Virus record (IMG/VR): IMGVR_UViG_3300024272_000027
DNA length: 64,000 nt
DNA from: a virus
Taxonomy: Duplodnaviria > Heunggongvirae > Uroviricota > Caudoviricetes
Direction: 5' to 3' (one strand)
A model generated the notes under the pieces. That model had not been told where the DNA came from. It made no database searches and worked only from the letters and a program-made list of their open reading frames with translations. Of the stretch, positions 3,737 through 37,300 are shown piece by piece. Position 1 is the stretch's first letter, and the number at the start of each line of letters is the position of its first letter. The translations under genes were made by a program, and so were the position numbers.

Positions 3737-5362
3737 TTAACCTTTTATTGTGCCATAAATACGAGTTGAATTACCAGCTGTATCTTTTGCTTTATAATTG
3801 TAGTTGAATGACTCAGTAATAAACTTTCCTTCGTCTATTCTACCTTTTAGTGTGAAGGCTTTCTTACCTCTAGTAAGTTGTGTGTTTTCACCAATAAATC
3901 TGTATTTGCCTGATTTTGTAAAATCTTTTGCTTCAAAGATAAAAGATGTTTTCTTTTTAGCGCCTGAGTTAAAAGTGATAACACCTTCAAGTATTATCTT
4001 ATCATCTTTCATTGAACAATCCGTAGTTTTATATGATTGAACATTTTCATAAACTTTCTTAAGATAGCCTTCTCCAAGTCCGTCAAAAGTCTCATCATCA
4101 AACTCATCAAGCTCAACATCGCTAAATTCATCCTCAACAGCACCGTTTAATAATTCGTCTTCGTGCTCATCTGTTAAAGGGGTAATAACTTCAGCACCAT
4201 CTACAGGAGTCTCTTCAGCTGTTTTTGGTTCAGTAGTAACTGTAACTTTACCGCTATCATCAGTGTTAACATTAACAATGCTATCATCTGTTTCAACATT
4301 TACATTGTTAACTGATTCTTTAATAGATTTAGATTCATCAAGTGATGAATCATCAAAATCAAATACGATATTGACGTATGCGCGATTCCATTTTGCCTTA
4401 TTCATTCTATCGGCACTCTCAATATACTTAAATTTAGTTCCATCAGTAATTTTAATAATCTCGGCTTCAACTATATCGCGTTCTTTATTGCTATCTGCAA
4501 CTACTTCACAGCCTAGCTTTTTATAGGCATTTATAATAAAATCAACCTCAGGATATTTATCCTTTATAGGTGTAATTAAATTATTAAATTCCGAAGTAAC
4601 TGACTCAGATTCTTTAATAGATTTAGATTCATTAAGTGGTGTATCATCAACAGATTCCATCTTTGTTCCCATACCATCGCCTTTTAAAATGATGTTATAA
4701 AGGAACTGAGCTGCACGAGTACCTGGCATTTTAGCTAACTTAGCTTTGATATTTTGTAGATACCCTTTATTCTTAACTTCAGGTTCAATTGAATCTAAGA
4801 AACTAATTGCTGATGCTGTGTCATACACATTAGCTAATTCATCACTATGTGCAGCCATAACGTTACTTAGAGTACCGCCGATGCCTGACATTGGTCTGTC
4901 TAAAGTAGCAACTGCTTCCTGTAACGATTCTTCAACAACGTCGTCATCTTTATTATCAGTATCTGCAGGTTTAGCATCATCATCTGTATCAGTACTGTCT
5001 TCTGATTCTCCAGTTTTACCACCGAAAGCTGATACTTCACCCATAACCTTAAATCCGCCCACAGTGTAGCAGTACGGACATTCTTCTTCAACATTAGCTA
5101 ATGTCTGGTCGTCATTTAGTTCAATTTCTTCAAGGTCTTTAAACAACTTTGAATGACAAGTTGTACAATCAAGAATTACCTTTCCAACATATGAGTCTTC
5201 TAAATCTCCCTCTGTTTCAGCTTCGGGGTCGATAACTGAAATGTCATCCGCTAAGTCATCATTTTGCTCAAATTCGGCAAGTTTAGCGATACCATCATCT
5301 GAAACAGAGAAGGTATCTTCGTTTAAAGCATTCAATGCTCTAAAAGCTTCTGTTAACTTCAT
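3737..5362 (-). CDS. acidic Zn-binding modular protein, candidate prohead core/internal protein
   Basis: 541 aa; leader MKLTEAF..ALNE; CTTC...CPYC pairs; two ESKSIKES linkers. Confidence 0.7.
   Translation of the reverse strand: MKLTEAFRALNALNEDTFSVSDDGIAKLAEFEQNDDLADDISVIDPEAETEGDLEDSYVGKVILDCTTCHSKLFKDLEEIELNDDQTLANVEEECPYCYTVGGFKVMGEVSAFGGKTGESEDSTDTDDDAKPADTDNKDDDVVEESLQEAVATLDRPMSGIGGTLSNVMAAHSDELANVYDTASAISFLDSIEPEVKNKGYLQNIKAKLAKMPGTRAAQFLYNIILKGDGMGTKMESVDDTPLNESKSIKESESVTSEFNNLITPIKDKYPEVDFIINAYKKLGCEVVADSNKERDIVEAEIIKITDGTKFKYIESADRMNKAKWNRAYVNIVFDFDDSSLDESKSIKESVNNVNVETDDSIVNVNTDDSGKVTVTTEPKTAEETPVDGAEVITPLTDEHEDELLNGAVEDEFSDVELDEFDDETFDGLGEGYLKKVYENVQSYKTTDCSMKDDKIILEGVITFNSGAKKKTSFIFEAKDFTKSGKYRFIGENTQLTRGKKAFTLKGRIDEGKFITESFNYNYKAKDTAGNSTRIYGTIKG
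4314..4632. repeat. 25-bp perfect direct repeat (4314-4338, 4608-4632) flanking an in-frame 98-codon module
   Basis: gattctttaatagatttagattcat at both positions, 294 bp apart; encodes ESKSIKES on minus strand. Confidence 0.95.
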
Positions 5363-5400
5363 ATGAACAATCTCCTTATCGTAGTTTATAATTACATTTG

Positions 5401-5410
5401 TAAATACAAT
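5401..5410 (-). promoter_or_regulatory. putative late promoter motif ATTGTATTTA
   Basis: One of ten ATTGTATW copies upstream of structural genes. Confidence 0.55.
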
Positions 5411-6121
5411 TTAGTCAAGAGGGTAAAGTAACTGAGTATTTTGCTGTAAGTATGTTCTTAACTCGCTTAACTCAGATTGACCTTCTTGTAACATTGCTGC
5501 TGCATCTGATGTCCAAAGTGCATTACTTTGTGTGAATCTTCCTCTAATACGTCCTAAGGTTATTTTAGTTAACGCTTTTGATAGACGCATTAAAACATCA
5601 ATCCAGAAGTCAGAAGTTATCTCACTAACATCATCATAGCGTGGAATGTATTCAATAGTTACTTGTGAGCCTGAATCCAGACGCGTGTTTATGTATAAAC
5701 GCTTTTCTGCATCCTCGTAGTACCAAGCTAAATCAGTAGACAATGTATTACTAACTTGCTGTATTGTACTCCAAGAAGCAAATCGGTTTACATAATCACT
5801 AAAATTATACATATTTCCTACACCTGATGTTAGTTGCCATAATCCTATCTGCATCGGGTCAATTCCTGACTCGGGTTGTTGACTTGTCGTACCAGAAGCT
5901 TGTGCTCTATATACACGAGCTATAGCATTTACTTTCTGTTTTGACATATCAATACACTTTTCATAAGGCACAGTAACAATTCTTGTTGAACAAATGTATC
6001 TTTGTAATTCTCTCAGTGCTGAATTAACTATCTGCATAATTGTTTCGTCACCGATTTCGAGTTCGAGAACACCACCAGTAACACTGAGTTTTATTTCATC
6101 GACATATGCACGCATATCCAT
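5411..6121 (-). CDS. neck protein (T4 gp13-like)
   Basis: 'LSVTGGVLELEI..TIMQIVNSALRELQRY', 'ALTKITLGRIRGRF'; directly downstream of MCP; start moved to MDMRAY (GAGGAG RBS). Confidence 0.65.
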   Translation of the reverse strand: MDMRAYVDEIKLSVTGGVLELEIGDETIMQIVNSALRELQRYICSTRIVTVPYEKCIDMSKQKVNAIARVYRAQASGTTSQQPESGIDPMQIGLWQLTSGVGNMYNFSDYVNRFASWSTIQQVSNTLSTDLAWYYEDAEKRLYINTRLDSGSQVTIEYIPRYDDVSEITSDFWIDVLMRLSKALTKITLGRIRGRFTQSNALWTSDAAAMLQEGQSELSELRTYLQQNTQLLYPLD

Positions 6122-6158
6122 ACAGTGATATCTCCTCTCATAATGATAGTTATATTCA

Positions 6159-6168
6159 TTTATACAAT
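6159..6168 (-). promoter_or_regulatory. putative late promoter motif ATTGTATAAA
   Basis: Upstream of gp13-like start, downstream of MCP terminator. Confidence 0.55.
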
Positions 6169-6185
6169 TAGTTGTTATATACAAA

Positions 6186-6219
6186 AATAATGCGTAGCAT
6201 ATTTCAGCTACGCATTATT
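6186..6219 (-). terminator. intrinsic terminator after major capsid gene
   Basis: aataatgcgtagc / gctacgcattatt 13-bp inverted repeat followed by T run on minus strand. Confidence 0.85.
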
Positions 6220-6239
6220 ATTATAAACTAAAACTTAAA

Positions 6240-7670
6240 CTAGTTAATTGTGTCAGCTGTGATTTCATTACCAGGGATGAATTCACCAGCAACAAGTAAC
6301 CAAGAATAATCTCCAACGTCAGGAGTTTCTGCACCTGTGTTAAGTTCCTCAATGTCAACTCTCTTACCATCAACAATCTTGTATGTTGAAAGAAGTTTCA
6401 TATCATACATTGTTGAGAAGCCTTGACTCATTGTACCATCAGCAAATCCAAGAAGCTGTGTAGGAACGATTGCCATATAAGGAGCATATACACCAGCTGA
6501 TGTCTGTAAATCAGAACCATTAACGCCGAAGAAGAATCTGTTCTCATCAATTGAAGGAGAAACAAATACTTTTAATCCATCAACAGTACCAGCAAGGTAA
6601 GGTCCATTGATTGTTGAAACAGAAGCTGCATTCCATCCAGGTAAATAAGGAAGAATTGTAAGGATGTTTGCACCAACTACCATATAGTTAGGAGCGAACT
6701 TCTGAGTTCTTTGATAGATGATTTTCTTAGCACGAGCAATGATTTCAGTAAATGTCTCATAGTACTGTGAACGACTTACGTAAGTACCATTACCATTTTT
6801 CTTAACGTGCTCATCATAGCTTTCAAATCTTAATGAACGGTCAAGTTCTGCACCCTTGTTAAGCATAAATACGCCTTCGGTATCAATCTCATAAGCAAGT
6901 TCGCCTTGAGCTTGAGTGCTTAACTGCTCACCGATGTCATAACCGTAATCAGTCTTAGCTTGGAAAGCAGCGATTTGGCTGTAGTAAACAGCAATTCTAC
7001 GAGCGTGTGCGTGTAATTGCATATAGCTCATTTTAGCTTTCAATGTAGGAATAGCGTTTCCGTTGTTACCTTCTTGAGGAATGATAACGTTGTCATAAGT
7101 ATAAGCAACTTTACCTTTTGAAGGTGCTTCATACTTACCATCTTCACCTGCTGTTAAAGGAGTGTAAGCAGTTGCACCGTCAGCACAGAATTTAACTGAG
7201 CCTGCAACTGGTTCCCAAGCAAATGCGATTGTTCCAGCTTCAACAGGTTCTACAATCTTATCAGATGTGTAGTTAACTCTGTCTTCAGTCATCTTAGGAT
7301 GTCTGTAAACGCCGTTGAATAAATCACCGTCTGTAACTCCACCTTTAGTTACACCAGCAGTATAACGTAGATATGTGATGTATCCAGTGATAGAGCTCAT
7401 TGGTTGAGTTAACATTAAATCTGGAAGAATTAAGTTAGGAAGTGCAACAGTTGAAACGTTTAAGCAAAATCTCTTGTAATCGCCAAGAGCGCTTCTTTGT
7501 GTAGCTGCACTGTTGTCAAATGCTTCGTTGATGAATTTGCTTGTATTGTTTAATACAGAAGCAATAAGAAGCTTTTTGTTAGCACTCATACGAGCACCAT
7601 TGTGTGACTTCTGATGAACAGATTCAGAAATAGAAAGTCTGTTCTTATAAGATTCTAATAAAGTAGCCAT
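6240..7670 (-). CDS. major capsid protein (T4 gp23-like)
   Basis: 476 aa; TQPMSSITGYITYLRY, HARRIAVYYSQ..QAKTDYGYDIGEQLSTQAQGELAYEIDTE, AGVYAPY match gp23-family motifs. Confidence 0.93.
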   Translation of the reverse strand: MATLLESYKNRLSISESVHQKSHNGARMSANKKLLIASVLNNTSKFINEAFDNSAATQRSALGDYKRFCLNVSTVALPNLILPDLMLTQPMSSITGYITYLRYTAGVTKGGVTDGDLFNGVYRHPKMTEDRVNYTSDKIVEPVEAGTIAFAWEPVAGSVKFCADGATAYTPLTAGEDGKYEAPSKGKVAYTYDNVIIPQEGNNGNAIPTLKAKMSYMQLHAHARRIAVYYSQIAAFQAKTDYGYDIGEQLSTQAQGELAYEIDTEGVFMLNKGAELDRSLRFESYDEHVKKNGNGTYVSRSQYYETFTEIIARAKKIIYQRTQKFAPNYMVVGANILTILPYLPGWNAASVSTINGPYLAGTVDGLKVFVSPSIDENRFFFGVNGSDLQTSAGVYAPYMAIVPTQLLGFADGTMSQGFSTMYDMKLLSTYKIVDGKRVDIEELNTGAETPDVGDYSWLLVAGEFIPGNEITADTIN

Positions 7671-7691
7671 TCTATAATGTCCTTTCGTAGT

Positions 7692-9218
7692 TTAGTTAAT
7701 TAAATTAAATAGTGAACTATCAACTACATCATCAGGATTTGTAAATCTTTGAGTAGATGTGTCTTCTTTCAAAGTTACACGGCTAATATTTGCATTACCT
7801 AATTCAAATGGTAACTTGTTCATATTACGTTTATAACTTCTCAAACCCTCGCAAACAGAATCAATATCATCGAAAGAATATCCCTCGCTTAATCGGTTCT
7901 TTATTTCGTTTGCTGTGATTCCTAAGTTAAGAGCTTTACTGTGAATATAGCGGTCAACAGCTTCGGCAGCTTGCTTTCTATAAGACTCAACTAATTCATT
8001 ACTGCGACTTAACTTTTGTGCATACTGTGAATTCTTTATCTGAGAATCAGTCTTTAAAGACTCAAGTTCTTCTTTTAAAGCTTTCACTTCTGCTTGAGCA
8101 CTATTACGTGCTCTTTGAACGCTTTCATTTAACTTTTTGTTCTCAGCTTGTAGTTCTAAGATTCGTGTGTCACGCTGTGAAACACTTTCTTTTAACCCTA
8201 ACCTTGACTTACGTGCGGCTTGAAACTTGGTTTGATAAGATTCAATAATACCTTTACGTTCATCAGCTAAATTACTCACAGACTCAAGTTGCTCTTTCAT
8301 CGACTTAAGTTGATTACTTAAGGCTTGAGCTTTGCTTACTGACTCAGATAATCTCTTAACTGCGTCTTTCAACTTTGTGTTCTCTTCTTGTAGACGACTC
8401 TCTTTAGTATAACTAACTGACAGTTTTTCGTGAAGAGTAACAACCTGTCTCTGTAAGCTATGGTTTTCTTTTAAAGCTTCCTGAAGTTCGTTTACTAAAT
8501 TTGTTCCGTCATCGTCGGCTACGCCTTCTTCAACTTTCTCAGTTTCTTCTGTCTTTGTTTCATCAGAAGAGTCGCTATAATCAATATCAAGATTATCAAG
8601 TGTCTCGGTCATTATTTTCCTGTCTTCAACACTTGCTCTCTCTAATGATTCGCGTAAAGCTTTCTTAAAGTTAATTTTATTTGTGTCTAATGATTCTGCT
8701 AACTGTAATCTTGCATCTTTACAAGCGGGAAGTAGCACTAAATCAAAAGCATTGAATGAATAAGTATCCTCATCAACAATTTCTTCGTTACCATCAAAAT
8801 AAGTATCGCCAGAACCTCTTGATGAAATACCAAGATTAAATCCATACTTTGCTAACGCATAAGCAATACGTCCACAAGGAGTATCGATTATATCAAAATA
8901 GCCAACTAATTTACCATCAGGCCCTTTAGTGGGAGGCTCAGGCATCATAATTGCTATCTTTTCTGAATTTGTTTCATCTCTGTCTGTTGGGTGGTCAAGT
9001 TCACCTGGAACACCGCCCTGAGCAAACATTTCTTTTGTTAAAGGATTATCAAAAACCTTCTCCCATAATGATTCAGTATAACGTCTTTCATTACGTGTAG
9101 GTTTAATTACATCAGCGATTGGCCCATATAAACGACCTAGAATACCTCTACGCTGTTTTTCTTCGGGTGATAACTCTTTAAACTTCAGTTCAACATTTTC
9201 TGTAAAACTCTCTAACAT
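7692..9218 (-). CDS. prohead protease (T4 gp21-like) fused to coiled-coil scaffold
   Basis: GELDHP, LGISSRGSG, FDLV..P motifs in first ~170 aa; ~300-aa coiled coil after. Confidence 0.9.
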   Translation of the reverse strand: MLESFTENVELKFKELSPEEKQRRGILGRLYGPIADVIKPTRNERRYTESLWEKVFDNPLTKEMFAQGGVPGELDHPTDRDETNSEKIAIMMPEPPTKGPDGKLVGYFDIIDTPCGRIAYALAKYGFNLGISSRGSGDTYFDGNEEIVDEDTYSFNAFDLVLLPACKDARLQLAESLDTNKINFKKALRESLERASVEDRKIMTETLDNLDIDYSDSSDETKTEETEKVEEGVADDDGTNLVNELQEALKENHSLQRQVVTLHEKLSVSYTKESRLQEENTKLKDAVKRLSESVSKAQALSNQLKSMKEQLESVSNLADERKGIIESYQTKFQAARKSRLGLKESVSQRDTRILELQAENKKLNESVQRARNSAQAEVKALKEELESLKTDSQIKNSQYAQKLSRSNELVESYRKQAAEAVDRYIHSKALNLGITANEIKNRLSEGYSFDDIDSVCEGLRSYKRNMNKLPFELGNANISRVTLKEDTSTQRFTNPDDVVDSSLFNLIN

Positions 9219-9265
9219 TGTTACCTACTTATCACCTTTCTAATCATATTAACTGTAATCAAAAT

Positions 9266-9275
9266 ATAATACAAT
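9266..9275 (-). promoter_or_regulatory. putative late promoter motif ATTGTATTAT
   Basis: Upstream of protease-scaffold gene. Confidence 0.5.
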
Positions 9276-9889: not shown

Positions 9890-11770
9890 TTATTCATTAT
9901 CACTATCCGTTAAGTCAATTCCTAAATCATCCGGTGACGGTAATACAGCTCCTCCGCTTGTGTCAGTAGCAGTATCATCACTTTCGGAAGATATGTCCTC
10001 GCCCGTAGGCCCTCCGCCTAAATCACCACCAAATGAATCGTTGAAGTTCATAGGAGCACCTAAATCAGCAGTTTCATCCACAGGTGGGTCCTCCTCTTCA
10101 AAAGGTGTTTCTTCTTCAAGTTTTTCAATCTGGTCCTGTAATACTTGAATTATATCGTTATCATCAATAACATTTGCAAGTAATGACTTAAGTATTTTTA
10201 GTTTAGCTACAGGGTCTTCAATCTCAGCTAACATATTCATAATGTCTGTGGTTAACTGAACTTTACTACTTAGATTGTCACGTCTATCGATTTCTTCTTG
10301 AGTAGTAGGAGGTAACATATGTATAACAAATTCATTAACATAACTATCAAGTCCTTTATCAAGAAGCATTAAGTTAACGGCATCTGTAATAGCTTGAATT
10401 AAAGCATTCTGTATTCTTTTTATCATCTTAGCATATCGGCTAGAAATGATTGATAAAGAGCTTCCACCATTAAAGCCAGTTGAGTCGTCCGTCTGTGAAA
10501 AATATTGTTTAGGAACTCTTAACTGTCCATATAGTTTATTCATATAGTAATCCAAATCCGCTAATGACTTAACATCAACGTCACCGCCGATTTGAGTTGT
10601 AGATATAGAACCCACACCGCCGTGTGTTGGGACATAGACGTTATTTTCTACGGGTCCTGGATTAGTATATTCTGTCATACCATTACCTGTGTTGATAGCG
10701 CTCTTCTGCTCTACCATTTGTTTTATGCCGAGTAATGTTTTAGTAACATTTTCTTTTGGCATATCACCAACTTCAACATTTATAAGTCTAACAATTGACG
10801 ATTTGGTAATACGGTTAAGTAATACTGAATTTTCAAGTAATTGTAGTTGTCGCCATACACTATATATGTTTGATAATAACGATTGACCCTTTTTAACTTT
10901 ATATGTTAATGCGTTATCGTCGTCATTAAAATCCTTATCGGTCAAGAAAATGTTTATAGTCTCTTCTTCACGTGATGCATTGTCTTCAAGGGACGCGTGA
11001 ACAAATTCTGTTGGTGGATAAACATTTATATCTTGTTTTTTAAACTTATATGAATAATTCCACGTATTGAATGTTGTGTTATCGTTTCGCATAACAGTAT
11101 TGGTTACAGGTGCTTCAACGTAACCGATTGTTTTACCAAAACGTGTTAACTCAAACATTGTTGCAGGATTTGCAACCATCTCCATATAATGAACATATCT
11201 ATCGTTCTTTTTATATGCTTTGAGTTTTATGTCTTCATCAAGTTTTTCTTGAGCATTTTCATTTAATGTTTGTTTTTTATCTTTGTTATTATCAAACAGG
11301 ATAGCATCATTATATTCAGAATCTCTATAGAGTCTTAGATATAAATCACCATATTTGCATAAACTATAACACCACTTGTAAATGTTTTTATTAACATTTA
11401 AGGAGTCAAGTAAGAACTCCACCATTTGACCGATATCATTATCTGCTGATTCAACCCATACAATATTTCCTGAATCATTACGTTCAGTAGCATCTTCAGC
11501 ATAGGTTTCCACAACTGCACTTATAGTCCCATCTTCACACATTGTGTCAAAGACATTATACATCTGATTACGATTTTCCGCTTTCTGATTTAAACCGTTA
11601 AGGGACTGGATATCAAGCTGTGATGATAGTCCTGCTTGAATAATATTATTATATAATGTGTTGTTTAAATCTACGTCGCGTTTTCGCTCAGGGGCAACGA
11701 CAGGTTTTATAGGTTTGTTATACAACTCGTCGTCATTAACAACAACAGTATCATCTATAATATCTGGCAT
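9890..11770 (-). CDS. portal protein (T4 gp20-like)
   Basis: 626 aa; LLENSVLLNRITKSSIVRLINVEVGDMPK, SRYAKMIKRIQ motifs; between terminase and protease. Confidence 0.92.
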   Translation of the reverse strand: MPDIIDDTVVVNDDELYNKPIKPVVAPERKRDVDLNNTLYNNIIQAGLSSQLDIQSLNGLNQKAENRNQMYNVFDTMCEDGTISAVVETYAEDATERNDSGNIVWVESADNDIGQMVEFLLDSLNVNKNIYKWCYSLCKYGDLYLRLYRDSEYNDAILFDNNKDKKQTLNENAQEKLDEDIKLKAYKKNDRYVHYMEMVANPATMFELTRFGKTIGYVEAPVTNTVMRNDNTTFNTWNYSYKFKKQDINVYPPTEFVHASLEDNASREEETINIFLTDKDFNDDDNALTYKVKKGQSLLSNIYSVWRQLQLLENSVLLNRITKSSIVRLINVEVGDMPKENVTKTLLGIKQMVEQKSAINTGNGMTEYTNPGPVENNVYVPTHGGVGSISTTQIGGDVDVKSLADLDYYMNKLYGQLRVPKQYFSQTDDSTGFNGGSSLSIISSRYAKMIKRIQNALIQAITDAVNLMLLDKGLDSYVNEFVIHMLPPTTQEEIDRRDNLSSKVQLTTDIMNMLAEIEDPVAKLKILKSLLANVIDDNDIIQVLQDQIEKLEEETPFEEEDPPVDETADLGAPMNFNDSFGGDLGGGPTGEDISSESDDTATDTSGGAVLPSPDDLGIDLTDSDNE

Positions 11771-14337: not shown

Positions 14338-14604
14338 TTATTCCTCCGTTGTACTCTCTTCTGTAACGTCATTATTTTGTTGTTCGTTCTTATCTTTTAT
14401 CACTTTAACAGTTTTTATAGCTGTTAGGGCAACTATCTCTGTACCCCAGAAAGCAAACCACGCATTAGTTAAAGTAGGGCTTACTTCAACACTTGTAAAA
14501 TATTGAAGTACAAAGTTGGATGCTGTGTAAAGTATTATCATTACACATATCAAAACAAGCATTATGTTTGAAACTTTTTTCTTCGGTTTAGGGCTTTTAG
14601 ACAT
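14338..14604 (-). CDS. two-TM membrane protein, holin-like
   Basis: Two hydrophobic helices; coupled to endolysin; start moved to MSKSPK (AAGGAG RBS). Confidence 0.6.
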   Translation of the reverse strand: MSKSPKPKKKVSNIMLVLICVMIILYTASNFVLQYFTSVEVSPTLTNAWFAFWGTEIVALTAIKTVKVIKDKNEQQNNDVTEESTTEE

Positions 14605-29105: not shown

Positions 29106-30419
29106 TTAGAATAAATCAGGCATATTGATTACCATTGAATATTTATAGAATCCATTGGAGTTTTTGTTTTCATCACGTTTTGGTTCTTCACAAGTTACGC
29201 CATAGTGGTCTGCAACTTTTTTAGCAAATTCAAACTCTTCAGGAGATTTAGCATAAACTATGATGTCTTTCTCACCGTGTGGGTAAACGTGCTCGTATCT
29301 TTCACCACGTTTAGCTTTGATTTGTTTATCAACCTGTTGACCTTTGCCTTCGTTGTCAACACTTGCACTTAGTTCATCATAAACTGCGTACCAAACATCT
29401 TCTGAACTATAATCCCAAGGGTCTTTTTCTTCGTTTGGTGAACGAACCCTTTTCTTTGTTTCGGGTTCTGCAACTGCTACAGGAGATTCATTTAATGTAT
29501 CATCATCCAGTTGAAAGAAATCAGGGTCTGTGTTACCTGTTTTAGAAGTGCCATTTAAGAATGGAACTGTGTTACCATTAGCCTGAACACTTGCAGTAAC
29601 AGGAATTTCAAAATCAAGGAACTCTTTAATGTCATCAATATTATCATCATCTACCGATTCATTACTAACGTTTCCAGCGGTACCATTCAAGAATCCTACT
29701 GAGGACTTGCTAGCGTCAAGTCCTACATTCAAGTCAAGAACTTCATTTTTTACAGTTCCTCCTGAACCTCCGAGGAACCCTACTGAAGAGCCACTAGCAT
29801 CAAGCGATATATTAGCATCAAAAAGCTCCTCTAAATCGTCGCTTTCAATAGATTCTGTTTTAGATTGTAGTATAGTATTAAGAACATCTGCAGGAATAAG
29901 TTCTAGTTGTTTATCTATGTAATCAATTGCTGCAGGATATCTTTCAGCCCAGTAAGCGTTGAAGTTTTCAACTGACTGTTTATTATCCATAAGCTTAGGC
30001 ACAAGTCTCTTTAGAGTGGTAATTCCGTAGTCTCTGTAATCATCACCCTCACCTAACATCTTAACCAGTTGTGTTATGTCAGATGTCATATCATATACAA
30101 TCGGAACACAAGGGCCTCTACCGAACTCCATAGGGTCACCAAAGTCAACGGCTTCTGCTAATTTCATTTTCTTAAGTTCAGGAGTGCTCTTTAGTTTTTG
30201 TTCTTTATTATGATTAACTTTTAAGAAGTCATCTACTTCTTTTGTCTTTTCTTTAAAATCATTTTCAAGCTTCTTCTCTGTCTCCATATGTTGATTAACT
30301 GCATCAGCATAAGCAATCGGAACTGCAGCTACAACATCTTCAACAGGCTCTTTAGGAAGCATTCTTTGTCCTATGAGCGCTTCGTTCATAGGATTCATCT
30401 TATAAGGTTTAAATTTCAT
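29106..30419 (-). CDS. acidic modular protein with three ~28-aa tandem repeats, candidate internal head protein
   Basis: Leader MKFKPYKMNPMNE (GGAGG RBS); repeats LDASGSSVGFLGG / LDASKSSVGFLNG / VQANGNTVPFLNG. Confidence 0.65.
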   Translation of the reverse strand: MKFKPYKMNPMNEALIGQRMLPKEPVEDVVAAVPIAYADAVNQHMETEKKLENDFKEKTKEVDDFLKVNHNKEQKLKSTPELKKMKLAEAVDFGDPMEFGRGPCVPIVYDMTSDITQLVKMLGEGDDYRDYGITTLKRLVPKLMDNKQSVENFNAYWAERYPAAIDYIDKQLELIPADVLNTILQSKTESIESDDLEELFDANISLDASGSSVGFLGGSGGTVKNEVLDLNVGLDASKSSVGFLNGTAGNVSNESVDDDNIDDIKEFLDFEIPVTASVQANGNTVPFLNGTSKTGNTDPDFFQLDDDTLNESPVAVAEPETKKRVRSPNEEKDPWDYSSEDVWYAVYDELSASVDNEGKGQQVDKQIKAKRGERYEHVYPHGEKDIIVYAKSPEEFEFAKKVADHYGVTCEEPKRDENKNSNGFYKYSMVINMPDLF

Positions 30420-30462
30420 TATGTACGAATCCTCCATCTATATATGTATGTATTAGATACTT

Positions 30463-31015: not shown

Positions 31016-33490
31016 CTATTCACCTGACGCCCACTTCTTATAAGCTTTTTCGTAATCAGGATTTCCTTTGTTGTCGCGATATAATTGGTCGATAGTTGCT
31101 GTTATTGCTTCACCGTCACCCTTTAATTCTTTTTCAATTGTTTTGAATGACTGATAAACTTCTTCCCAAGATTCTTTCATAACGTTGTCATCCTCCTCAA
31201 TATTATTATTTGGAGAACTGTTAGAATTATTTAAGTCTTCTTCAACGATATCGGTAACTCCACCAATTTGTTGTTGACCTTCTATCTCGCCAGTATCGAT
31301 TGCTTTTGCATTTGGTGATACTGTTTTAAGAAGTTCTTGTAGCTGTCCAACGTGTTTGTTTTCTTCGGTGTTGATTTCATCAACTACAGTTGCTATATCT
31401 TCAAAGCCTTCTGCTCTAGCACTAACAGCTATGTCATTGTACATCTGAATTGTTTTAAACTCATCTTGTACTGCTGTGTTAAGCAAGGAAGCTAATCCTG
31501 ACTCAGGACCTTCAGTAGGCCCAGCTAAAGTGTCAGTAACAACGTCTGTTACATCTTCGTGTAAACTTTCATTAGTCATTGTGTAACTACTAATAATTGA
31601 TTCAAGTTTAGCATAGAAATCTCTGCATATCTTTGTAATGTATGCTGCCTTGTGTGAAGGTAACACATCTAGCATCTCTAAAACTTTAGCACAAATGTCA
31701 GGTACTTCCACATCAAGATATCTACTTGCAGTGTATTTATCGTCATCAAAGTCTTCTCTGAATAGCGATTCATTTAATGTAAACTTTGATTCAACGCTTT
31801 CATTTACTGCATTTGAAATCGGTTCATAAGCCATTACCTCTTCAGGATAAGTAGGATTTTCACTATCACCTGTAAGACTACTTATTGCATAATGGTCAGC
31901 CAATATGTCTTCAGCCGCATCACCGCTTGTACCTTCAGGCAGTTTAAATCTTCCTTCCTTAGTAAAGTTATCAGTAGCGTCTTTAAGGAATTCATAAGCT
32001 TTATCAAATGATTCTTGTGAGTATCTTAGTGACTTTTTAATAGGTTTGTCCTCTGATAAAGGTCTTATAAATCTTTCAGGAGCTTCGTCACCAAATTCAT
32101 CATCTTGTTCTGCTTGGATATCAGAAATGTATCTATTACACTCATCTTCAGAACCTTCAAATTCGATTTGGTCCATACCATCTTGAGTGAAGTATACACA
32201 GTGAGTAGATTTAGATTCATCAAGTAATTTATTATCTCTTGCATACTGCATTAAATCATCAGTACTGATATTACCGAATGGTGTAGTAACATAATCACCA
32301 TATCTGCTAGCAATATCATCATATGCTCTAGTGCGTTTAGCAATGTACCCTTTTGGAGGAACTGCTTCAGGATTACTAGAAAGATACTTATCTATTCTTT
32401 TAATAACTCCTGTACGATTATCCCAACCATCAATTCCTTCACTCAGTTTACTTGCGTCAAAGCCAAGATAGTTTACCATAGTTGATTTAGCTTCATCTTC
32501 GGATACATTTAACTCTTTTGAAATAGCTTTCATTTCGTGTTGAGCTTCTGTATCCCAATTACCTGAAACTGGTTTTGAAGTTGAGTACCTGTCAGCAATC
32601 TTATCAACGATTGCTTTCTGTTCGTCAGATAAAGATTCAGTTACTTTGTTTTTACTGTGAATATTCTCTAGAGTGCTAACATATAAGTTATATAGGTCTT
32701 CAGTAGGAGTCTTACCATTCTGTTTCATAAAGTTTGAAAACTCTTCGTAAGAATCACAAGCAACACCCATTTCATACATCTCTTTTGCATCCTGTTTTAC
32801 TTTATCTTCAACAGACGACTCAACAGTTGATGAATTAGATTGAGCAGATGGTGGATACACATAACCTTTCTGTCCTGCGTACTCCCATATAACTATACAT
32901 TCATTTCCTTCATTATCTTTTGTGAGATTCCAAACGTCAGTATCAACTTCAGTTTTACCTGTATCTTCATTAGTCCAAGTAGTTTCACATTCGATACTGT
33001 TAGGATATTCACCGCCGCTTGCATTATGAATAGCTACAACTTTTGAAGTGTAGTCGCCACCGTACAGTCCGCTAAATGTGAAAGTGTCACCAACTTTAAA
33101 ATGTGCGTTAGCTGACTCTTTAAGTTTATTATGTGCTTCAATATTCTTTATTTCAATATTGTCGCCATACTTTGCTTTCATCTGAGCAATAGCTGACTCT
33201 TCTCTATAATCATAACAGTAATCAGCAAATGTTTTACCATCTTGCTCAATAGTTATTTTATATCCGCCTTCATTTAATGATGCTTTACCTGCCCAACTGT
33301 CAATTGTTGCTTTAGCATCTTTAAGAGTAGCAAGACCTTCTTCTTTTACGGCTCTTTTAACCTTTTCAGGTGTTCCTTCATAAGAGTAGATATCCCAACC
33401 ATCGCCTGCTCTATTTTTAAGAATTACATAACCATTGTAAAATTCTTTTTGGAAGCCTTCTGATGCTTCATTTAATTTTCTAATTTTCAT
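31016..33490 (-). CDS. 824-aa acidic modular protein, candidate head-cargo polyprotein
   Basis: Leader MKIRKLNE; internal sites SLNE, KLKE, KLSE, LLDESKS, PLSE, TLNE, SLHE; ferritin-like helical segment near C-terminus (tentative). Confidence 0.75.
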   Translation of the reverse strand: MKIRKLNEASEGFQKEFYNGYVILKNRAGDGWDIYSYEGTPEKVKRAVKEEGLATLKDAKATIDSWAGKASLNEGGYKITIEQDGKTFADYCYDYREESAIAQMKAKYGDNIEIKNIEAHNKLKESANAHFKVGDTFTFSGLYGGDYTSKVVAIHNASGGEYPNSIECETTWTNEDTGKTEVDTDVWNLTKDNEGNECIVIWEYAGQKGYVYPPSAQSNSSTVESSVEDKVKQDAKEMYEMGVACDSYEEFSNFMKQNGKTPTEDLYNLYVSTLENIHSKNKVTESLSDEQKAIVDKIADRYSTSKPVSGNWDTEAQHEMKAISKELNVSEDEAKSTMVNYLGFDASKLSEGIDGWDNRTGVIKRIDKYLSSNPEAVPPKGYIAKRTRAYDDIASRYGDYVTTPFGNISTDDLMQYARDNKLLDESKSTHCVYFTQDGMDQIEFEGSEDECNRYISDIQAEQDDEFGDEAPERFIRPLSEDKPIKKSLRYSQESFDKAYEFLKDATDNFTKEGRFKLPEGTSGDAAEDILADHYAISSLTGDSENPTYPEEVMAYEPISNAVNESVESKFTLNESLFREDFDDDKYTASRYLDVEVPDICAKVLEMLDVLPSHKAAYITKICRDFYAKLESIISSYTMTNESLHEDVTDVVTDTLAGPTEGPESGLASLLNTAVQDEFKTIQMYNDIAVSARAEGFEDIATVVDEINTEENKHVGQLQELLKTVSPNAKAIDTGEIEGQQQIGGVTDIVEEDLNNSNSSPNNNIEEDDNVMKESWEEVYQSFKTIEKELKGDGEAITATIDQLYRDNKGNPDYEKAYKKWASGE

Positions 33491-33603
33491 CTATAGCTCT
33501 CCTCTGTTCTTTGAGATAATTTGTCAACATATGTACAATAGGTTTCAGTAGAGGACTGTGTTTCAAGTCCTCTATCAAAATCTTCTACTAACTTAAATTT
33601 CAT
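33487..33603 (-). CDS. 38-aa ORF missing from ORF track with leader MKFKLVE
   Basis: Hand translation MKFKLVEDFDRGLETQSSTETYCTYVDKLSQRTEESYR; ATGA overlaps at both ends. Confidence 0.6.
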   Translation of the reverse strand: MKFKLVEDFDRGLETQSSTETYCTYVDKLSQRTEESYR

Positions 33604-34301
33604 ATACTCAACTCCTCTGATGCTAATTCAACTCGCCTGTCTTTAAGAGCATCGAGTAGTCCGTTGTTTCTTATTTGTTTGAAGATAAGATTACCTTTTC
33701 CAAACTCTCCATCCACAACTAATGAATTTCTTCTCAACAGATATAATTCATCAATTATGTTTAATATATCTTCTTCAGTTCCTATCGATAATATCTGATT
33801 TATTCTATCAGTAAAATCACTTAACTCAGGTTCTAATTCAACATCAACAGCAGAAAGTTTTACAGGTTCTTTTATCCACATATCTTTTAACACTGAATAT
33901 ATACCATTTGATTGTGGAGAAGATTTAACATCTTCAACATATAATTCAACATCATATCCACCATAAGTAATATCATACTTATTGTTAAAGTTTGCTTTGA
34001 AAGCATTCATAGCGGCTTGAACTAACTCTTCAGGATAACCGTATTGTTCAAAGTTAGTTATAATATGTATATCTATGTCACTTTTATCATTATAATTATA
34101 TGACGCATTAGAACCGACTAAGTTTATATCTAAAACAACAATCGGTATATCTAAAGTGGTTTGAAATTCATCAACAAGATGTAATATCTTATCTTTCACT
34201 TCAGGCTTAAGTTTATTATTAAACCACAATACAGGATTTAATTCATCCTGTATTGTGACTAACTCTTCATTTATATAAGATTCAAATAACTTAAACTTCA
34301 T
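33600..34301 (-). CDS. Pol-beta-superfamily nucleotidyltransferase with leader MKFKLFE..INE
   Basis: GSNASYNYNDKSDIDIHII (GS...DxD) and YDVELYV third acidic strand. Confidence 0.8.
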   Translation of the reverse strand: MKFKLFESYINEELVTIQDELNPVLWFNNKLKPEVKDKILHLVDEFQTTLDIPIVVLDINLVGSNASYNYNDKSDIDIHIITNFEQYGYPEELVQAAMNAFKANFNNKYDITYGGYDVELYVEDVKSSPQSNGIYSVLKDMWIKEPVKLSAVDVELEPELSDFTDRINQILSIGTEEDILNIIDELYLLRRNSLVVDGEFGKGNLIFKQIRNNGLLDALKDRRVELASEELSI

Positions 34302-37300
34302 TACCTTTAGCCTCTTTAGCTAAACGAGCTTCTGTTTCCTCAGGAGTCTCAACTCCATCTGGCATATCATACTTTGTGTCTCCACCATAGATAGAAGCGA
34401 GTTCATCGTCATCCCACTCATCTTCTTCAAACCCTTCTTTCTTAGAAGGTTTGTTTAAAAGTGGAATATCGTATGTCGAACGAATATAAGCAGTAGGATA
34501 TCTGTCTTTAACTGCTTTATAATCATCAAGTGCAACAGCTCTTTCTGCGTATTGAGTTGCTGCTTTCATATCAGTTCCAAAGTTGTCATCGGTAGCATTA
34601 TAATAAAGATTTAAACCATCTTCTTTTGCTATAATGATATACTTTTCAACACCTTCTTTAAGAGTACCATTAGGACATCCTTCAGTCTCACAATAGCCAT
34701 TATCATTTAACTTCTTACCACACTCAGTGCAGTGAGTTAAATCTTTATCAACTGATTCCATATATTGTGAAGCATCTTCTGCGGATACTTCAACTGTTAT
34801 AGCATCCGCATAGATGAGAAGCTTAGCACAAACTGTGCCGTCTTCATTTACATATTCTGTAACATTAGGTTCGTCTCCGTGCTGAGTAACTTCCTTAAAT
34901 CCCTCTGATTGAATATCATAGTGAACTAAAGTAGCATCAGAATCATCTTCGCTGTTATTAAAGTAAATCTGATATACGTCAACATACTTTGTTATCTTAT
35001 TAGCACCATACTCTTTAAGTGAATTGAATAATCTATTAGCTACTGCTTCAAGATTACTATCAACATCTTCAGTAATCATCGGAGAATATCTTTCAAATTC
35101 TTTATCAAGTATTCCTTTTAATCTATCGCTAAATCCATATTTGTCAAGGTTCCCTTTATCTTTGATTACGTCATCAATAGATAACCCTTTGAGTTCTTCG
35201 GCGCCTTCTGTATCTTTCGGATTTAATTTTAGATACCATTCATCAGCTGGTTGAATACCTTCTTTAATAGATTCAGTAGCCGTACGAGTTCTACCATTTA
35301 TTCTATAACTATTAGGTATTCGTATGTTATCTGCATTTATATATTGACTATAACTGATGATTTCATCCTCATCAAAATAATCAACTAAGTCTCTACCGAA
35401 AACATATTTATTATCGTTGATATAGAATTTACTATCAGGAAGTCTTGTACTTAACATATCAGCGTTTGATTTAGATACTCCGAAATCATCCAATCCGTCT
35501 TCTGTGATAGATTTAGATTCACTCGCTGGAAACTCTTCAAACCAATCATCGTGCTCACGACCGAACGGGATTTCAACTTGAACACCACTGCTCAGTTCTT
35601 TAAACAATACACCATAATAAGAACCACCATAAGTGCTGTGGATAGTTTGTTTACCTATAGCTTCAAACTTAGTGCCCTTGGGGAATTCTATATTGATATT
35701 TCTATATCGCTCATCAGGATGAGAAGAGTTATAATGCACAAATTGAGTAGCATTCTTAAATACTTTTTCTGCCTCAAAATGAAGGAACATAATCTTTCCT
35801 GTATAGTATAAAAACTCTGTCTTCAAGGTCCATATAGTACCAGGTTTAAATAATGAGTATAAGTATTCGCTGTAACTACTACTAGACTCGGTCGATTCTT
35901 TAATAGATTTAGATTCGTTAGTAGTCTCATAATCTTTATCTAGGAAACCAAATTTCTTTAGTACGGATACACTCTCATCCTCATCTAAACGAGTAAGCAG
36001 TTTGAGAATAATTTTACATACATCTTTTTTAGAGCTGTATTTAGAATCATCTGCAAGTCCTTCTTCAAGTGCAGCAAGAAGCCATTCTTTCCAACTGTCT
36101 GTTCCATCAGTCTCAGCATCTAAAGGCTGCCAATTACATTCATCTACTATCTCAGACATAACATCATCTAAATTAGCTGGGTGAGCATTTTGTACTAAAT
36201 ATTTACACATTTGAGTTATCTCTTCACCAGGCAGGTAATAGATATTATCGTGCATACTATATAGTACAGTATCTAGATGTGCATCTTCTTTAATAGATTT
36301 TGATTCATTTATGTCGTCGTTCTCCCAATCATTAACTTTTGACTGTAAGAACTCTTGAGCTTCTTTAACTGTATCACAAGGACCCCAATCAATAAATCCT
36401 GTATCAGTATCAACAACAAAGAATCCGCTAATAGCAGTACTATCTTCATCGTCTTCGTCTTCACGACGATAAGCCCACCATACTGCCCAGTTGTCAAAAT
36501 CTAAATGAACTGTGTCACCACATTGTTTAAACCACATCCAAGTGTAACCATCTTCAATGAACTGATTACCAGCGGTTACTGTAGTGTTGTCTTCATCCCA
36601 ATCTTCCATATCATATAAGATGTCTGTGTCATCACTTTCATTAAGTGTTAACTTTTCGCTCATATATCCGCTTGGAGTATATTTTCTGATAATAGCATCT
36701 GTATCATCCATATCTATTTTCTTAACAATAGCACTCATTGGATATTCGTGTTGTCTTTCTCCCCACGCCCAACCTAAGAAGGTTCTGCCGTGATAGAGTT
36801 CTTTTTCCACTTTAACAGGAATGATGTTTGGGGTTCCATTTTTCTTTGTATTAAGATTAACTTCTACCCATTCACCTTTATCATAACCTTCTGTGAGCAT
36901 TTCATTCATTTTCTTTAAACGTACTTCACGAGGAAGCATTCTTAGATTATAGTACTTAACTGCTCTTGCCTTTTCTTCGTCAGTGAGTTCTTTTTCGTAC
37001 TCACGTGCTTTATCCATATTAACACCATACTGATATGTTATGGCAGCAAGTAGTTGTTCTTCATCAGAACCATTTCTATCTATGCGGTCATATTCGTCAT
37101 CGTCAGGCATATACCCTTCACGCATATCAGTTACTTTCATTTTAACTGGATTAGCAACGCCAGATTTCTTCAAACTATCAAAAGCTGCTTGAGCGTCTTT
37201 ATCATTGTAGTATATTCTACCAGACTCATCATCACCAACAAAATACTCCTCTTTAGCATCTTCAGTTAATGACTCATTTTTAGCTAACGCTATATCTATT

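What the first reader, a model, noticed from the sequence alone, without database searches (positions are those of the whole stretch)
4314..36308. Shared 22-25 bp linker (ESKSIKE) in three putative head-cargo genes: a candidate recombinational domain-shuffling system
Seen: the minus-strand sequence ATGAATCTAAATCTATTAAAGAA(TC) occurs at 4314-4338 and 4608-4632 (identical 25 bp, 541-aa gene), 35894-35916 (23 bp identical), 36286-36308 (1 mismatch), 35500-35521 (2 mismatches), 35260-35273 (partial; all four in the 1432-aa gene) and 32206-32220 (15 bp, 824-aa gene). Synonymous positions are conserved, and all within-gene spacings are multiples of 3 (294, 390, 396, 240 nt), bracketing unrelated 80-132 aa blocks. 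Known: T4 gp21 cleaves after Glu in L/I-x-E contexts, and this window encodes a gp21-like protease. Inference: the linker is both a maturation cleavage site (IKE/ITE) and a homology patch that lets cargo domains be swapped, inserted or deleted in frame, producing variable arrays of proteins packaged in the head and injected into the host.
Basis: partly seen in the sequence, partly recalled or inferred. Interest (0 to 1): 0.88.

Follow-up and report, generated by a model that had tools for sequence, protein, structure and literature searches.

The report
Shuffling linker in phage head polyproteins
A large uncultured animal-gut phage strings unrelated small protein modules into long acidic head-region proteins, joined by a short linker that looks like a cutting site for its head protease. 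One 21-base version of that linker is kept nearly letter for letter at many different module junctions in this phage and its relatives, marking where modules are gained, lost and replaced.

Summary
GAATCTAAATCTATTAAAGAA (ESKSIKE) occurs in frame at five junctions in two genes, plus two partial copies, and nowhere else in the 161.5-kb genome. Codon usage cannot explain it (0 of 200,000 simulations). The blocks it brackets are unrelated.

The word is one derived form of a general linker, ES-[L/I/V]-x-E. Seven of that motif's eight occurrences lie in head-module genes of a phage with a T4-type capsid protein, portal and S77 protease.

Relatives support cassette turnover:
- One lacks every ESKSIKE-bracketed cassette and fuses two of the genes.
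- Four different states occupy the same site of the 541-aa gene.
- The same 21-mer sits at about 14 further junctions with different neighbours in nine related contigs.
- Cassettes recur in different genes.

Limits:
- Only 5 of 12 homology-block ends lie at a strict linker.
- Ordinary recombination in conserved flanks also moves cassettes.
- Other ES-L-x-E linkers show no DNA conservation.
- Cleavage, packaging and injection are untested.

The closest known systems are T4 internal proteins with their capsid-targeting leader, and PeSL linker-mediated shuffling. Earlier AI notes of this scan describe the same kind of system in other phages with other linker words.

The parts
3737..5362 (-). 541-aa polyprotein gene (P0001). 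It has a conserved N-terminal zinc-ribbon domain, an acidic spacer, a helical module, a lineage-specific cassette and a conserved beta-rich C-terminal domain.
   Evidence: 47 related loci in IMG/VR have a hypervariable middle. In the AlphaFold model the folded parts are 60-112, 163-230 and 352-541, and all three linkers lie in stretches with pLDDT under 50.
4608..4632 (-). ESKSIKE linker copy 1 of the 541-aa gene (aa 245-251), upstream of the accessory cassette.
   Evidence: It is identical over 25 bp to copy 2. A further 18 nt upstream is similar, with 4 mismatches.
4339..4607 (-). Accessory cassette (about aa 252-342) bracketed by two identical linkers.
   Evidence: Absent from relative G001, replaced by another cassette in L119, and replaced by 1059 other bases in a 90.5-kb bovine-gut contig.
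4314..4338 (-). ESKSIKE linker copy 2 (aa 343-349), at the junction with the conserved C-terminal domain.
   Evidence: The final Glu (E349) is invariant in 18 homologues. Metagenome contigs diverge exactly at 4339.
4916..4930 (-). Older linker ESLQE (aa 145-149) in the acidic spacer of the 541-aa gene.
   Evidence: Its Ser codon is TCG, so it does not share the repeat's DNA.
34291..38589 (-). 1432-aa acidic polyprotein gene (P0002, pI 4.3).
   Evidence: It is mosaic relative to the single 1535-aa gene of G001.
36286..36306 (-). ESKSIKE linker (aa 762-768, TCA variant).
   Evidence: Homology with G001 ends inside it, at aa 766.
35896..35916 (-). ESKSIKE linker (aa 892-898), exact 21-mer.
35500..35520 (-). 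ESKSITE linker (aa 1024-1030), with 2 mismatches in the 21-mer.
35260..35274 (-). ESIKE linker (aa 1106-1110). This is the 15-nt form from which the 21-mer differs by a 6-nt tandem duplication of AATCTA.
37957..37971 (-). ESLTE linker (aa 207-211), the right border of an 86-aa block absent from G001.
37261..37275 (-). ESLTE linker (aa 439-443), at the start of a block shared with G001.
33600..34301 (-). 233-aa nucleotidyltransferase-like gene with a capsid-targeting-type leader (MKFKLFE|S). It lies between the two polyprotein genes.
   Evidence: It is absent from G001 and present at 72-76% identity in L106 and L113.
31016..33490 (-). 824-aa polyprotein gene (P0003). Its last module is a ferritin-like domain.
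   Evidence: In G001 only residues 646-824 exist, fused to the P0002-like gene.
32206..32220 (-). Truncated linker word (D-ESKS, 15 nt) in the 824-aa gene.
   Evidence: The module that follows it recurs in L093 at 72% identity.
31556..31570 (-). ESLHE linker (aa 641-645), in front of the ferritin-like module.
   Evidence: The block shared with G001 starts at aa 646.
29106..30437 (-). 443-aa acidic head-region protein with a leader-like N-terminus. It shares a cassette with a P0001-like gene of another phage.
   Evidence: E 5e-6 to L029.
1971..3725 (-). 584-aa protein with the leader MSLKRINE|S and one ESLSE site.
7692..9218 (-). Prohead protease (S77, T4 gp21 type) fused to a coiled-coil tail rich in L/I-x-E-S sites, probably the scaffold.
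6240..7670 (-). Major capsid protein (Pfam Gp23), with candidate propeptide sites ISE|S and INE|A.
9890..11770 (-). T4-type portal protein (Pfam Portal_T4).

Best explanation
The 541-, 1432- and 824-aa genes encode acidic 'beads-on-a-string' polyproteins of the head module, probably together with the 233-, 443- and 584-aa neighbours. The phage has a T4-type capsid protein, portal and S77 prohead protease.

Shown:
- Unrelated modules are joined by a short motif, ES-[L/I/V]-x-E, that is almost confined to these genes.
- One derived DNA form of it, the 21-mer coding ESKSIKE, equals the ESIKE word plus a 6-nt tandem duplication, which points to a single origin.
- That 21-mer has been copied to many non-homologous junctions in three genes here and in at least nine related contigs.
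- It keeps its silent positions while its flanks are unrelated.
- Relatives differ by whole cassettes at these junctions, and cassettes recur in different genes.

Inferred:
1. The proteins enter the prohead through an N-terminal leader of the T4 capsid-targeting type (MK...[L/I]-x-E followed by A or S).
2. The protease cuts after Glu in the linkers. The ESKSIKE linker offers two sites, [L/I]-[N/D]-E|S and S-I-K-E|S/D. This would release the modules as separate small proteins inside the head.
3. The identical in-frame 21-25-nt word serves as a short homology patch for the phage's own recombination system. A RecA/UvsX-type gene is present. Cassettes could then be inserted Campbell-style (leaving the cassette between two linker copies, as in the 541-aa gene), deleted or exchanged without breaking the frame. 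Ordinary homologous recombination in the conserved end domains then spreads the resulting alleles.

What the modules do after release is unknown.
For: Repeat and its statistics.

Motif confinement: 7 of 8 ES[LIVM]xE occurrences lie in five head-module genes that hold about 8% of the residues.

Single origin by a 6-nt duplication.

Relative G001 (156 kb; 53% codon identity at conserved residues):
- It lacks the 541-aa gene's cassette and has one ESINE linker there.
- It lacks all ESKSIKE-bracketed cassettes, the NTase gene and P0003 residues 1-640.
- It fuses the P0002-like and P0003-like genes into one 1535-aa frame.
- It carries its own ESKSIKE copy between other cassettes, 25 of 25 nt identical to a window copy.

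Four states at one site: G000, G001, L119 (capsid protein 100% identical, different cassette) and a 90.5-kb bovine-gut contig with 1059 other bases. Other contigs diverge exactly at the edge of the linker.

The same 21-mer lies in frame at junctions with different neighbours in L058/L104, L095, L086, L093, L106, L113, L114 and L117.

Six copies found without using the DNA pattern match the consensus at 33 of 41 codons, where about 50% is expected. Their Ser codon is TCT in 10 of 12 cases, where 20-33% is expected.

Cassettes shared between different genes: E 3e-17 to 5e-6.

Five of 12 homology-block ends lie within 3 aa of a strict linker, against 9% by chance.

The linkers lie in low-confidence inter-domain stretches of the model, and the P1 Glu is invariant in 18 homologues.

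Leader-like N-termini occur on 6 head-region proteins, against 2 elsewhere among the 211 predicted proteins.

A RecA-family gene is present.

Other lineages repeat their own linker DNA in-gene: 31-34 nt coding ESFKHRRTIKE in L051 and L055. A cassette swap between 90-95% identical phages has its left breakpoint at the end of that linker.
Against: - No direct evidence of cleavage, packaging or ejection.
- Seven of 12 block ends are not at a strict linker.
- In L034 versus L055 the right breakpoint lies about 50 aa inside the C-terminal domain, and another indel sits in an acidic spacer.
- The L119 allele was exchanged through a recombination tract in the conserved flanks and brought its own, different linkers.
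- The other ES-L-x-E linkers show no silent-site conservation. Breakpoints at linkers could therefore reflect selection for intact domains rather than homology-driven crossover.
- The ESKSIKE array in the 1432-aa gene may have arrived en bloc, so G000 may record as few as two or three events.
- 21-25 nt is short for recombinase-mediated exchange.
- All modules are strongly acidic (pI 4.0-5.7). From general knowledge, this resembles T4 core-derived peptides more than the basic T4 internal proteins.
Confidence: 0.6

Rival explanations
1. Hitch-hiking plus selection. The linker is only a tolerated inter-domain spacer and cut site. Its DNA identity reflects recent copying together with cassettes, or en-bloc acquisition of an array from one donor. 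Breakpoints cluster at linkers because only recombinants that keep domains intact survive. The exchanges themselves arise from illegitimate recombination or from ordinary homologous recombination in conserved flanks.
For: - The L119 allele was exchanged through flanking homology and carries different linkers.
- Some breakpoints lie away from linkers.
- The older ES-L-x-E linkers are not conserved in DNA.
- The ESKSIKE region of the 1432-aa gene is one contiguous block absent from G001.
Against: - The 21-mer is flanked by different, unrelated cassettes at about 19 junctions in nine or more contigs.
- The cassettes next to it in G000 have no detectable relatives anywhere, so the linker is far better conserved than anything it could be hitch-hiking with.
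- Conservation drops sharply at the edges of the word.
- The 541-aa gene's cassette lies between two identical copies, as a crossover within the word would leave it.
Confidence: 0.28
2. These proteins are scaffold or core components rather than delivered cargo. Like T4 gp22, gp67 and gp68, they would help build the prohead, be cut into small acidic pieces and mostly leave the head. Cassette turnover would then be nearly neutral filler variation. This rival concerns function only and is compatible with either recombination model.
For: - The proteins are extremely acidic (net charge -56, -161 and -75).
- They have many candidate cut sites.
- Apart from a ferritin-like domain, no enzymatic or anti-defence domain was found.
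- The ESKSIKE cassettes are orphans.
Against: - A separate protease-scaffold fusion with a coiled-coil tail already exists.
- Folded, conserved domains are present: a zinc ribbon, a beta-rich C-terminal domain and a ferritin-like domain.
- An NTase-like enzyme gene with the same leader sits in the operon.
- Rapid turnover of accessory cassettes is the pattern reported for the T-even internal proteins, which act against host defences (PMC12373910, PMC3012670).
Confidence: 0.25
3. The word is conserved for a DNA- or RNA-level function unrelated to recombination by homology. Examples would be the target of a sequence-specific nuclease or recombinase, or a translational signal.
For: Silent positions are conserved across phages whose flanking proteins are only 35-59% identical.
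Against: - Every family copy is in the same reading frame, inside polyprotein genes, exactly at module junctions.
- No endonuclease or integrase gene is linked to it.
- Copies found independently of the pattern do drift by 1-4 bases.
Confidence: 0.07
4. Chance or codon bias. ESKSIKE is a common low-complexity peptide written in the preferred AT-rich codons.
For: Exact matches also occur in unrelated viral and metagenome contigs: one 379-aa protein family, a giant-virus gene and others.
Against: - 0 of 200,000 simulations reach the observed identity.
- TCT makes up only 20% of Ser codons, yet fills 7 of 8 Ser positions here.
- The genome has no copy outside these genes.
Confidence: 0.01

Closest known systems
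T4 internal proteins IPI, IPII, IPIII and Alt, with the capsid-targeting sequence, processed by prohead protease gp21 (PMC7411985, PMC3012670, PMC12373910; Repoila et al. 1994 as cited there)
   Same: - T4-type capsid protein, portal and S77 protease.
- Short N-terminal leaders ending in [L/I]-x-E followed by A or S.
- A highly variable, non-core set of head-associated proteins that differs between close relatives.
   Different: - Here the variable units are domains inside long polyproteins, joined by internal cut-site-like linkers. They are not separate small genes that each carry a leader.
- The proteins are very acidic.
- Nothing is known about their targets.
- Packaging and cleavage are inferred only.
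PeSL-mediated modular shuffling in T4-type phages, and the Susskind-Botstein 'linker sequence' model (Arbiol et al. 2010, PMC2839356; Comeau et al. 2014, PMC4122927)
   Same: - A short conserved repeated sequence flanks variable cassettes.
- A cassette between two copies in one phage corresponds to a single copy in a relative.
- The proposed mechanism is homologous recombination on short patches by the phage's own machinery.
   Different: - PeSLs are intergenic elements of about 100 bp combining a promoter and a stem-loop, and they move whole genes.
- Here the word is 21-25 nt, lies inside coding sequence, keeps the reading frame and doubles as a putative protease site.
- Circular intermediates have not been looked for.
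Conserved in-frame motifs as recombination points in T-even tail-fibre genes (the 'His boxes' of gp37; recalled from Tetart et al. 1998, paper not held)
   Same: A short conserved coding motif brackets hypervariable protein segments that are swapped between phages.
   Different: That case involves a different protein class (adhesins). The motif has a structural role, not a cleavage role.
Polyvalent proteins of phages and conjugative elements (Iyer et al. 2017, PMC5512222)
   Same: Long multi-domain proteins encoded beside virion genes, predicted to be packaged, processed and delivered with the DNA, with highly variable domain content.
   Different: - Apart from a ferritin-like domain, no characteristic conflict domain and no embedded metallopeptidase was detected here.
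- Processing would be done by the prohead protease at a standard linker.
- That paper does not use the words 'linker' or 'shuffling' (0 occurrences each).
Head and inner-body proteins of phiKZ-like giant phages processed by the prohead protease (SPN3US motif A-x-E, phiKZ motif S-x-E; PMC5694885, PMC7411985)
   Same: Many head proteins are cut after Glu at a short motif, some at multiple sites. Families of head proteins vary in number between phages.
   Different: In those phages the variation comes from paralogous whole genes, and the cuts remove propeptides. No shared DNA word at junctions of unrelated modules has been reported.

Membership tests
T4-type capsid-targeted, gp21-processed head proteins | The phage encodes an S77 (gp21-type) prohead protease together with a Gp23-type capsid protein and a Gp20-type portal. 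| tested here: met
   PHROG 207 at E 4.9e-30. Pfam Peptidase_S77 at E 1.9e-5 (24.7 bits, cut-off 27). Gp23 at 2.5e-24. Portal_T4 at 8.4e-39.
T4-type capsid-targeted, gp21-processed head proteins | A short N-terminal leader ending in an [L/I]-x-E cleavage motif. | tested here: met
   A regular-expression search finds it on P0002, the NTase, P0003, the 443-aa and 584-aa proteins and the capsid protein, against 2 hits elsewhere among the 211 predicted proteins. P0001 starts MKLTE|A. This is a sequence pattern only.
T4-type capsid-targeted, gp21-processed head proteins | The protein is physically present in proheads or virions and is cut by the protease. | not testable with these tools
   There is no cultured phage and no proteome. 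Indirect support only: the P1 Glu is invariant in 18 homologues and the linkers lie in low-pLDDT stretches.
T4-type capsid-targeted, gp21-processed head proteins | The protein is ejected into the host with the DNA. | not testable with these tools
   None.
Linker-mediated modular shuffling (PeSL type) | A conserved repeated sequence flanks variable cassettes, with presence or absence between relatives. | tested here: met
Linker-mediated modular shuffling (PeSL type) | The element is intergenic and combines a promoter with a stem-loop terminator. | tested here: not met
   All copies lie in frame inside coding sequence and code for ESKSIKE. This is therefore an analogue of PeSLs, not a member.
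Linker-mediated modular shuffling (PeSL type) | Crossovers map inside the element, and excised circles are detectable. | tested here: inconclusive
   Contigs diverge exactly at the linker edge and one homology block ends inside the word. Contigs cannot show rare joints or circles, and other exchanges use the flanks.
Polyvalent proteins (Iyer et al. 2017) | Several recognisable conflict or effector domains and, often, an embedded zincin-like peptidase. | tested here: not met
   Pfam on the whole proteins and on ten separate modules gives only a ferritin-like or rubrerythrin hit on P0003 residues 669-754.
Tandem-duplication repeat protein | The blocks between repeats are paralogous. | tested here: not met
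   All module pairs give blastp E > 0.02.
Inteins or other self-splicing in-frame elements | A Hint or endonuclease domain inside the inserted block. | tested here: not met
   The bracketed cassettes have no Pfam hit of that kind. They are 75-125 aa long.

The most novel reading that the evidence does not exclude
The 21-nt word would be the core site of a dedicated in-frame cassette-exchange system, the coding-sequence counterpart of integron or PeSL cassettes. Cassettes would excise as circles and reinsert at any linker in any of several head polyprotein genes. Co-infecting gut phages could then trade capsid-delivered proteins as standard parts, with the same word guaranteeing both the reading frame and release by the head protease. 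Different T4-like lineages would use different words.
Probability: 0.3. Interest if true: 0.85.

Novelty: new variant of a known kind. Interest (0 to 1): 0.66.

Why it matters
If the linker is both a protease site and a recombination joint, it explains how large phages can rapidly re-assort the set of small proteins they load into the capsid without ever breaking a reading frame. These proteins are the class to which T4's injected anti-restriction proteins belong. Such a linker would be a natural, portable standard connector for protein parts.

It would also give a simple sequence signature for finding capsid cargo genes in metagenomes: a leader, repeated cut-site linkers and silent-site conservation. 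Most of those modules currently have no homologues or known function.

The hypothesis is directly testable by virion proteomics and recombination assays.

Tried and rejected
- Megablast of 10 kb and tblastn of P0002 against 50,697 phage records: no match.
- PHROGs and Pfam on the three proteins and on ten separate modules: nothing except the ferritin-like domain. The weak DMAP1-like hit on the 541-aa gene's cassette (E 3.6e-4, below the cut-off) was not used.
- The search for related loci with P0002 in IMG/VR found nothing. The orthologue was found only by searching the relative's genome directly.
- The search for homologous proteins on P0002 residues 769-1105: none at E <= 0.001.
- Fold searches with the P0001 model: one uncharacterised viral homologue. 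The best solved-structure match was Z 6.5 to generic beta sheets or barrels, so no assignment was made.
I used peptide scans of the fetched loci instead.
- Matches to the 21-mer outside this phage family are probably chance in AT-rich coding DNA and were not counted: a 379-aa protein family, a giant-virus gene, and the tandem ESKSIKESKSIKE in L094 and L115. L070/L100 (beside a T4-like portal of 27% identity) and L078/L107 were left as uncertain.
- Read laying showed no contig with the simple 294-nt in-frame deletion between the two linkers in runs X5 and X6. Contigs drop rare variants, so this says nothing either way.
- G001's copy alone (6 of 7 codons identical) would not be significant against the 57% codon identity seen at orthologous E, S, K and I residues. 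The argument rests on the non-orthologous positions and the number of copies.
- Repoila et al. 1994 is not held and is cited only through papers that cite it.

Full report
**Observation.**
- It is exact at 4316-4336, 4610-4630 and 35896-35916.
- It has one silent change at 36286-36306 and two changes at 35500-35520 (ESKSITE).
- A 15-nt ESIKE form lies at 35260-35274, and a 15-nt partial copy at 32206-32220.
- The two copies in the 541-aa gene are identical over 25 bp and similar over about 43 bp.
- No shuffle of the window produced a match, and the complete 161.5-kb genome has no other copy at up to four mismatches.
- From the genome's own codon usage, an ESKSIKE peptide would be written this way 0.36% of the time. 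TCT is only 20% of Ser codons, yet fills 7 of 8 Ser positions.
- In 200,000 simulations of four independent encodings, none reached the observed mean of 20.5 identical bases out of 21 (null 15.4 +/- 0.9).
- The blocks between linkers are unrelated to one another, so this is not a tandem-repeat protein.

**Setting.** The window is the structural region of a large uncultured phage of 36% G+C, with nearly all genes on one strand.
- It has a Gp23-type capsid protein, a Gp20-type portal, a gp13-type neck protein and an S77 prohead protease fused to a coiled-coil tail.
- Runs that hold its DNA are animal feces and bovine-gut metagenomes.
- The three genes are very acidic (pI 4.3-4.5) and have no family assignment. 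The one exception is a ferritin-like domain at the end of the 824-aa protein.

**The linker as a motif.**
- ES-[L/I/V/M]-x-E occurs eight times in the predicted proteome. Seven of these are in five head-module genes that hold about 8% of all residues.
- Preceding residues are usually [L/I/V/T]-[N/D], so the ESKSIKE linker offers two T4-style [L/I]-x-E sites. The T4 gp21 preference for Leu/Ile-x-Glu is my own knowledge. PMC5694885 and PMC7411985 document gp21 processing of core proteins, and A-x-E or S-x-E motifs in giant phages.
- The capsid protein has ISE|S and INE|A near its N-terminus, and the protease's coiled-coil tail is full of L-x-E-S.
- Six head-region proteins start with MK...[L/I]-x-E-[A/S], like the T4 capsid-targeting sequence. 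Only two proteins elsewhere do.
- In an AlphaFold model of the 541-aa protein built on 18 homologues, the three linkers fall in low-confidence inter-domain stretches. The last Glu of the linker before the C-terminal domain is invariant.
- This all fits a cleavable linker but does not prove cleavage.

**Origin of the 21-mer.**
- The word equals the 15-nt ESIKE word found at aa 1106 of the 1432-aa gene plus a 6-nt tandem duplication (AATCTA). The ESKSIKE copies therefore most likely share one origin.
- The ordinary ES-L-x-E linkers in this genome and in relative G001 use AGT, TCA, TCG or TCT for Ser and either Glu codon. DNA conservation is thus a property of this sub-class, not of all linkers.

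**Closest relative (G001).** G001 is a 156-kb IMG/VR contig, with about 73% nucleotide identity in aligned genes and 53% codon identity at conserved residues.
- Its 541-aa orthologue is 440 aa and reads ...KM-ESINE-DVNNV. It lacks the 109 residues that include the cassette and one linker.
- Its P0002-like and P0003-like genes are a single 1535-aa frame. That frame contains P0002 residues 1-120, 209-370, 438-482, 631-766 and 1373-1423, and P0003 residues 646-824, interleaved with other modules.
- Nowhere in G001 are the three ESKSIKE-bracketed cassettes of P0002, the cassette of P0001, the NTase-like gene, or P0003 residues 1-640.
- G001 has one ESKSIKE copy of its own, between different cassettes, identical over 25 of 25 nt to a window copy.
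- Of 12 internal ends of shared blocks, five lie within 3 aa of a strictly defined linker, against 9% expected. Several others lie near degenerate sites, but some do not.
- The 86-aa block at P0002 residues 121-206 lies between ELKED and SLTED, where G001 has a single ELTED.

**Population variants at one site.**
- Contig L119 has a 100% identical capsid protein but carries a different cassette in the 541-aa gene, with RRVE and AESLTE borders. Nucleotide identity falls from about 100% to 80-85% across residues 60-430. This allele was therefore exchanged by recombination in the conserved flanks.
- A 90.5-kb bovine-gut contig is 98.9% identical over 4647-5362. It replaces 4347-4646 with 1059 other bases.
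- Other contigs match the C-terminal domain plus the linker and diverge exactly at 4339, with a different upstream module that ends ...DDDL before DESKSIKE.
- One junction thus shows four states among close relatives.

**Wider family.**
- The 541-aa family has 47 loci in IMG/VR, with conserved ends and a hypervariable middle built of modules separated by ES-[L/I/V]-x-E.
- Exact-pattern scans and peptide scans of the fetched loci found the same 21-mer, in frame, in related contigs L058/L104, L095, L086, L093, L106, L113, L114 and L117. Relatedness is shown by homologous neighbouring genes. The flanking modules differ each time, and conservation drops sharply at the edges of the word.
- Most of these were found through the pattern itself. 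I therefore counted only the six copies found independently: 33 of 41 codons equal the consensus, where about 50% is expected, and Ser is TCT in 10 of 12 cases, where 20-33% is expected.
- Cassettes recur in different genes. G001 residues 1130-1258 match P0001-like genes of L034 and L058 (E about 1e-16). G001 residues 334-388 match L020 (3e-16). The window's 443-aa protein matches L029 (5e-6).
- Other lineages repeat their own linker DNA. L051 and L055 carry 31-34 identical nt coding ESFKHRRTIKE. L034 versus L055 (90-95% identical) swap cassettes with the left breakpoint at the end of that linker but the right one about 50 aa into the C-terminal domain.

**Interpretation.**
- Shown: a lineage-specific in-frame DNA word sits at many junctions of unrelated modules, is conserved at silent sites, and marks sites of cassette gain, loss and replacement. 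Cassettes also move between genes.
- Inferred: the word is a protease cut site and a short homology patch used by the phage recombination system, for which a RecA/UvsX-type gene is present. The cassette between two identical copies is what a crossover between a linker on a circular or foreign cassette and a resident linker would leave. This is the model proposed for PeSLs (PMC2839356).
- The main rival is that identity reflects recent copying and that selection alone places breakpoints at linkers. Exchange through conserved flanks certainly also occurs. Against pure hitch-hiking, the word is far better conserved than any neighbouring cassette, and the G000 cassettes have no detectable relatives at all.
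- Whether the products are delivered cargo or expendable core material is open. Their strong acidity favours neither clearly.

**Comparison and novelty.**
- The system works like a combination of T4 internal proteins (leader, gp21 processing, hypervariable set; PMC7411985, PMC3012670, PMC12373910) and linker-mediated modular shuffling (PeSLs; PMC2839356, PMC4122927). It is a member of neither: the units are domains inside polyproteins, and the linker is coding.
- It lacks the domains that define polyvalent proteins (PMC5512222).
- I found no paper in the held library that describes prohead-protease linkers doubling as conserved DNA joints. This is not proof of absence.
- Earlier AI notes of this scan report the same kind of system in other uncultured T4-like and giant phages with other linker words. 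I did not test those.
- I rate it a new variant of a known kind, of good but not top interest, because the biochemical half of the model is untested.

Noticed in passing
window 31229-31486 (-), P0003 residues 669-754: A ferritin-like or rubrerythrin domain (Pfam E 2.4e-7 and 8.8e-6) forms the last module of a putative capsid-targeted polyprotein. It is conserved in G001, L106 and L114. A ferritin-like protein inside a capsid recalls encapsulin cargo.
   Followed up: partly
window 33600-34301 (-): A 233-aa nucleotidyltransferase-like gene (weak Pfam hits) carries the same leader type (MKFKLFE|S) and lies between the two polyprotein genes. It overlaps the stop of the 1432-aa gene. It is absent from G001 and present at 72-76% identity in L106 and L113.
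   Followed up: partly
window 7692-9218 (-): The prohead protease is fused to a C-terminal coiled coil of about 300 aa that carries about ten L/I-x-E-S sites. This is probably a protease-scaffold fusion that digests itself.
   Followed up: no
L051 and L055 (IMG/VR sample 3300045988), P0001-like genes: A different, longer linker word (31-34 identical nt coding ESFKHRRTIKE) is repeated in-gene and here brackets a tandemly duplicated cassette. A sister contig, L034, carries another cassette at the same place.
   Followed up: partly
window 29106-30437 (-): The 443-aa acidic protein contains three copies of a motif like LDASGSSVGFLGG. The same motif occurs in the P0001-like genes of L029 and L031.
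   Followed up: partly
L070 and L100, 152-aa ORF just upstream of a T4-like portal (27% identity to the window's portal): The exact 21-mer, read MN-ESKSIKE-A, occurs in a very distant T4-like phage beside its portal and protease genes. This could be chance or a much wider spread of the word.
   Followed up: no
L094 and L115: A tandem ESKSIKESKSIKE, encoded by the same word twice, lies in contigs with no detected relation to this phage.
   Followed up: no
window 14597-16417 (-): A 606-aa two-domain endolysin (PHROG 435 at E 2.4e-57; PHROG 8124 at E 1.1e-33) sits in the middle of the structural gene block, between the terminase-like gene and large tail or fibre-like genes.
   Followed up: no
L058 and L104, P0001-like gene residues about 500-620: A leucine-rich-repeat-like module (recognised by eye, not tested) sits directly upstream of the ESKSIKE linker. 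This shows that quite different fold types are used as cassettes.
   Followed up: no
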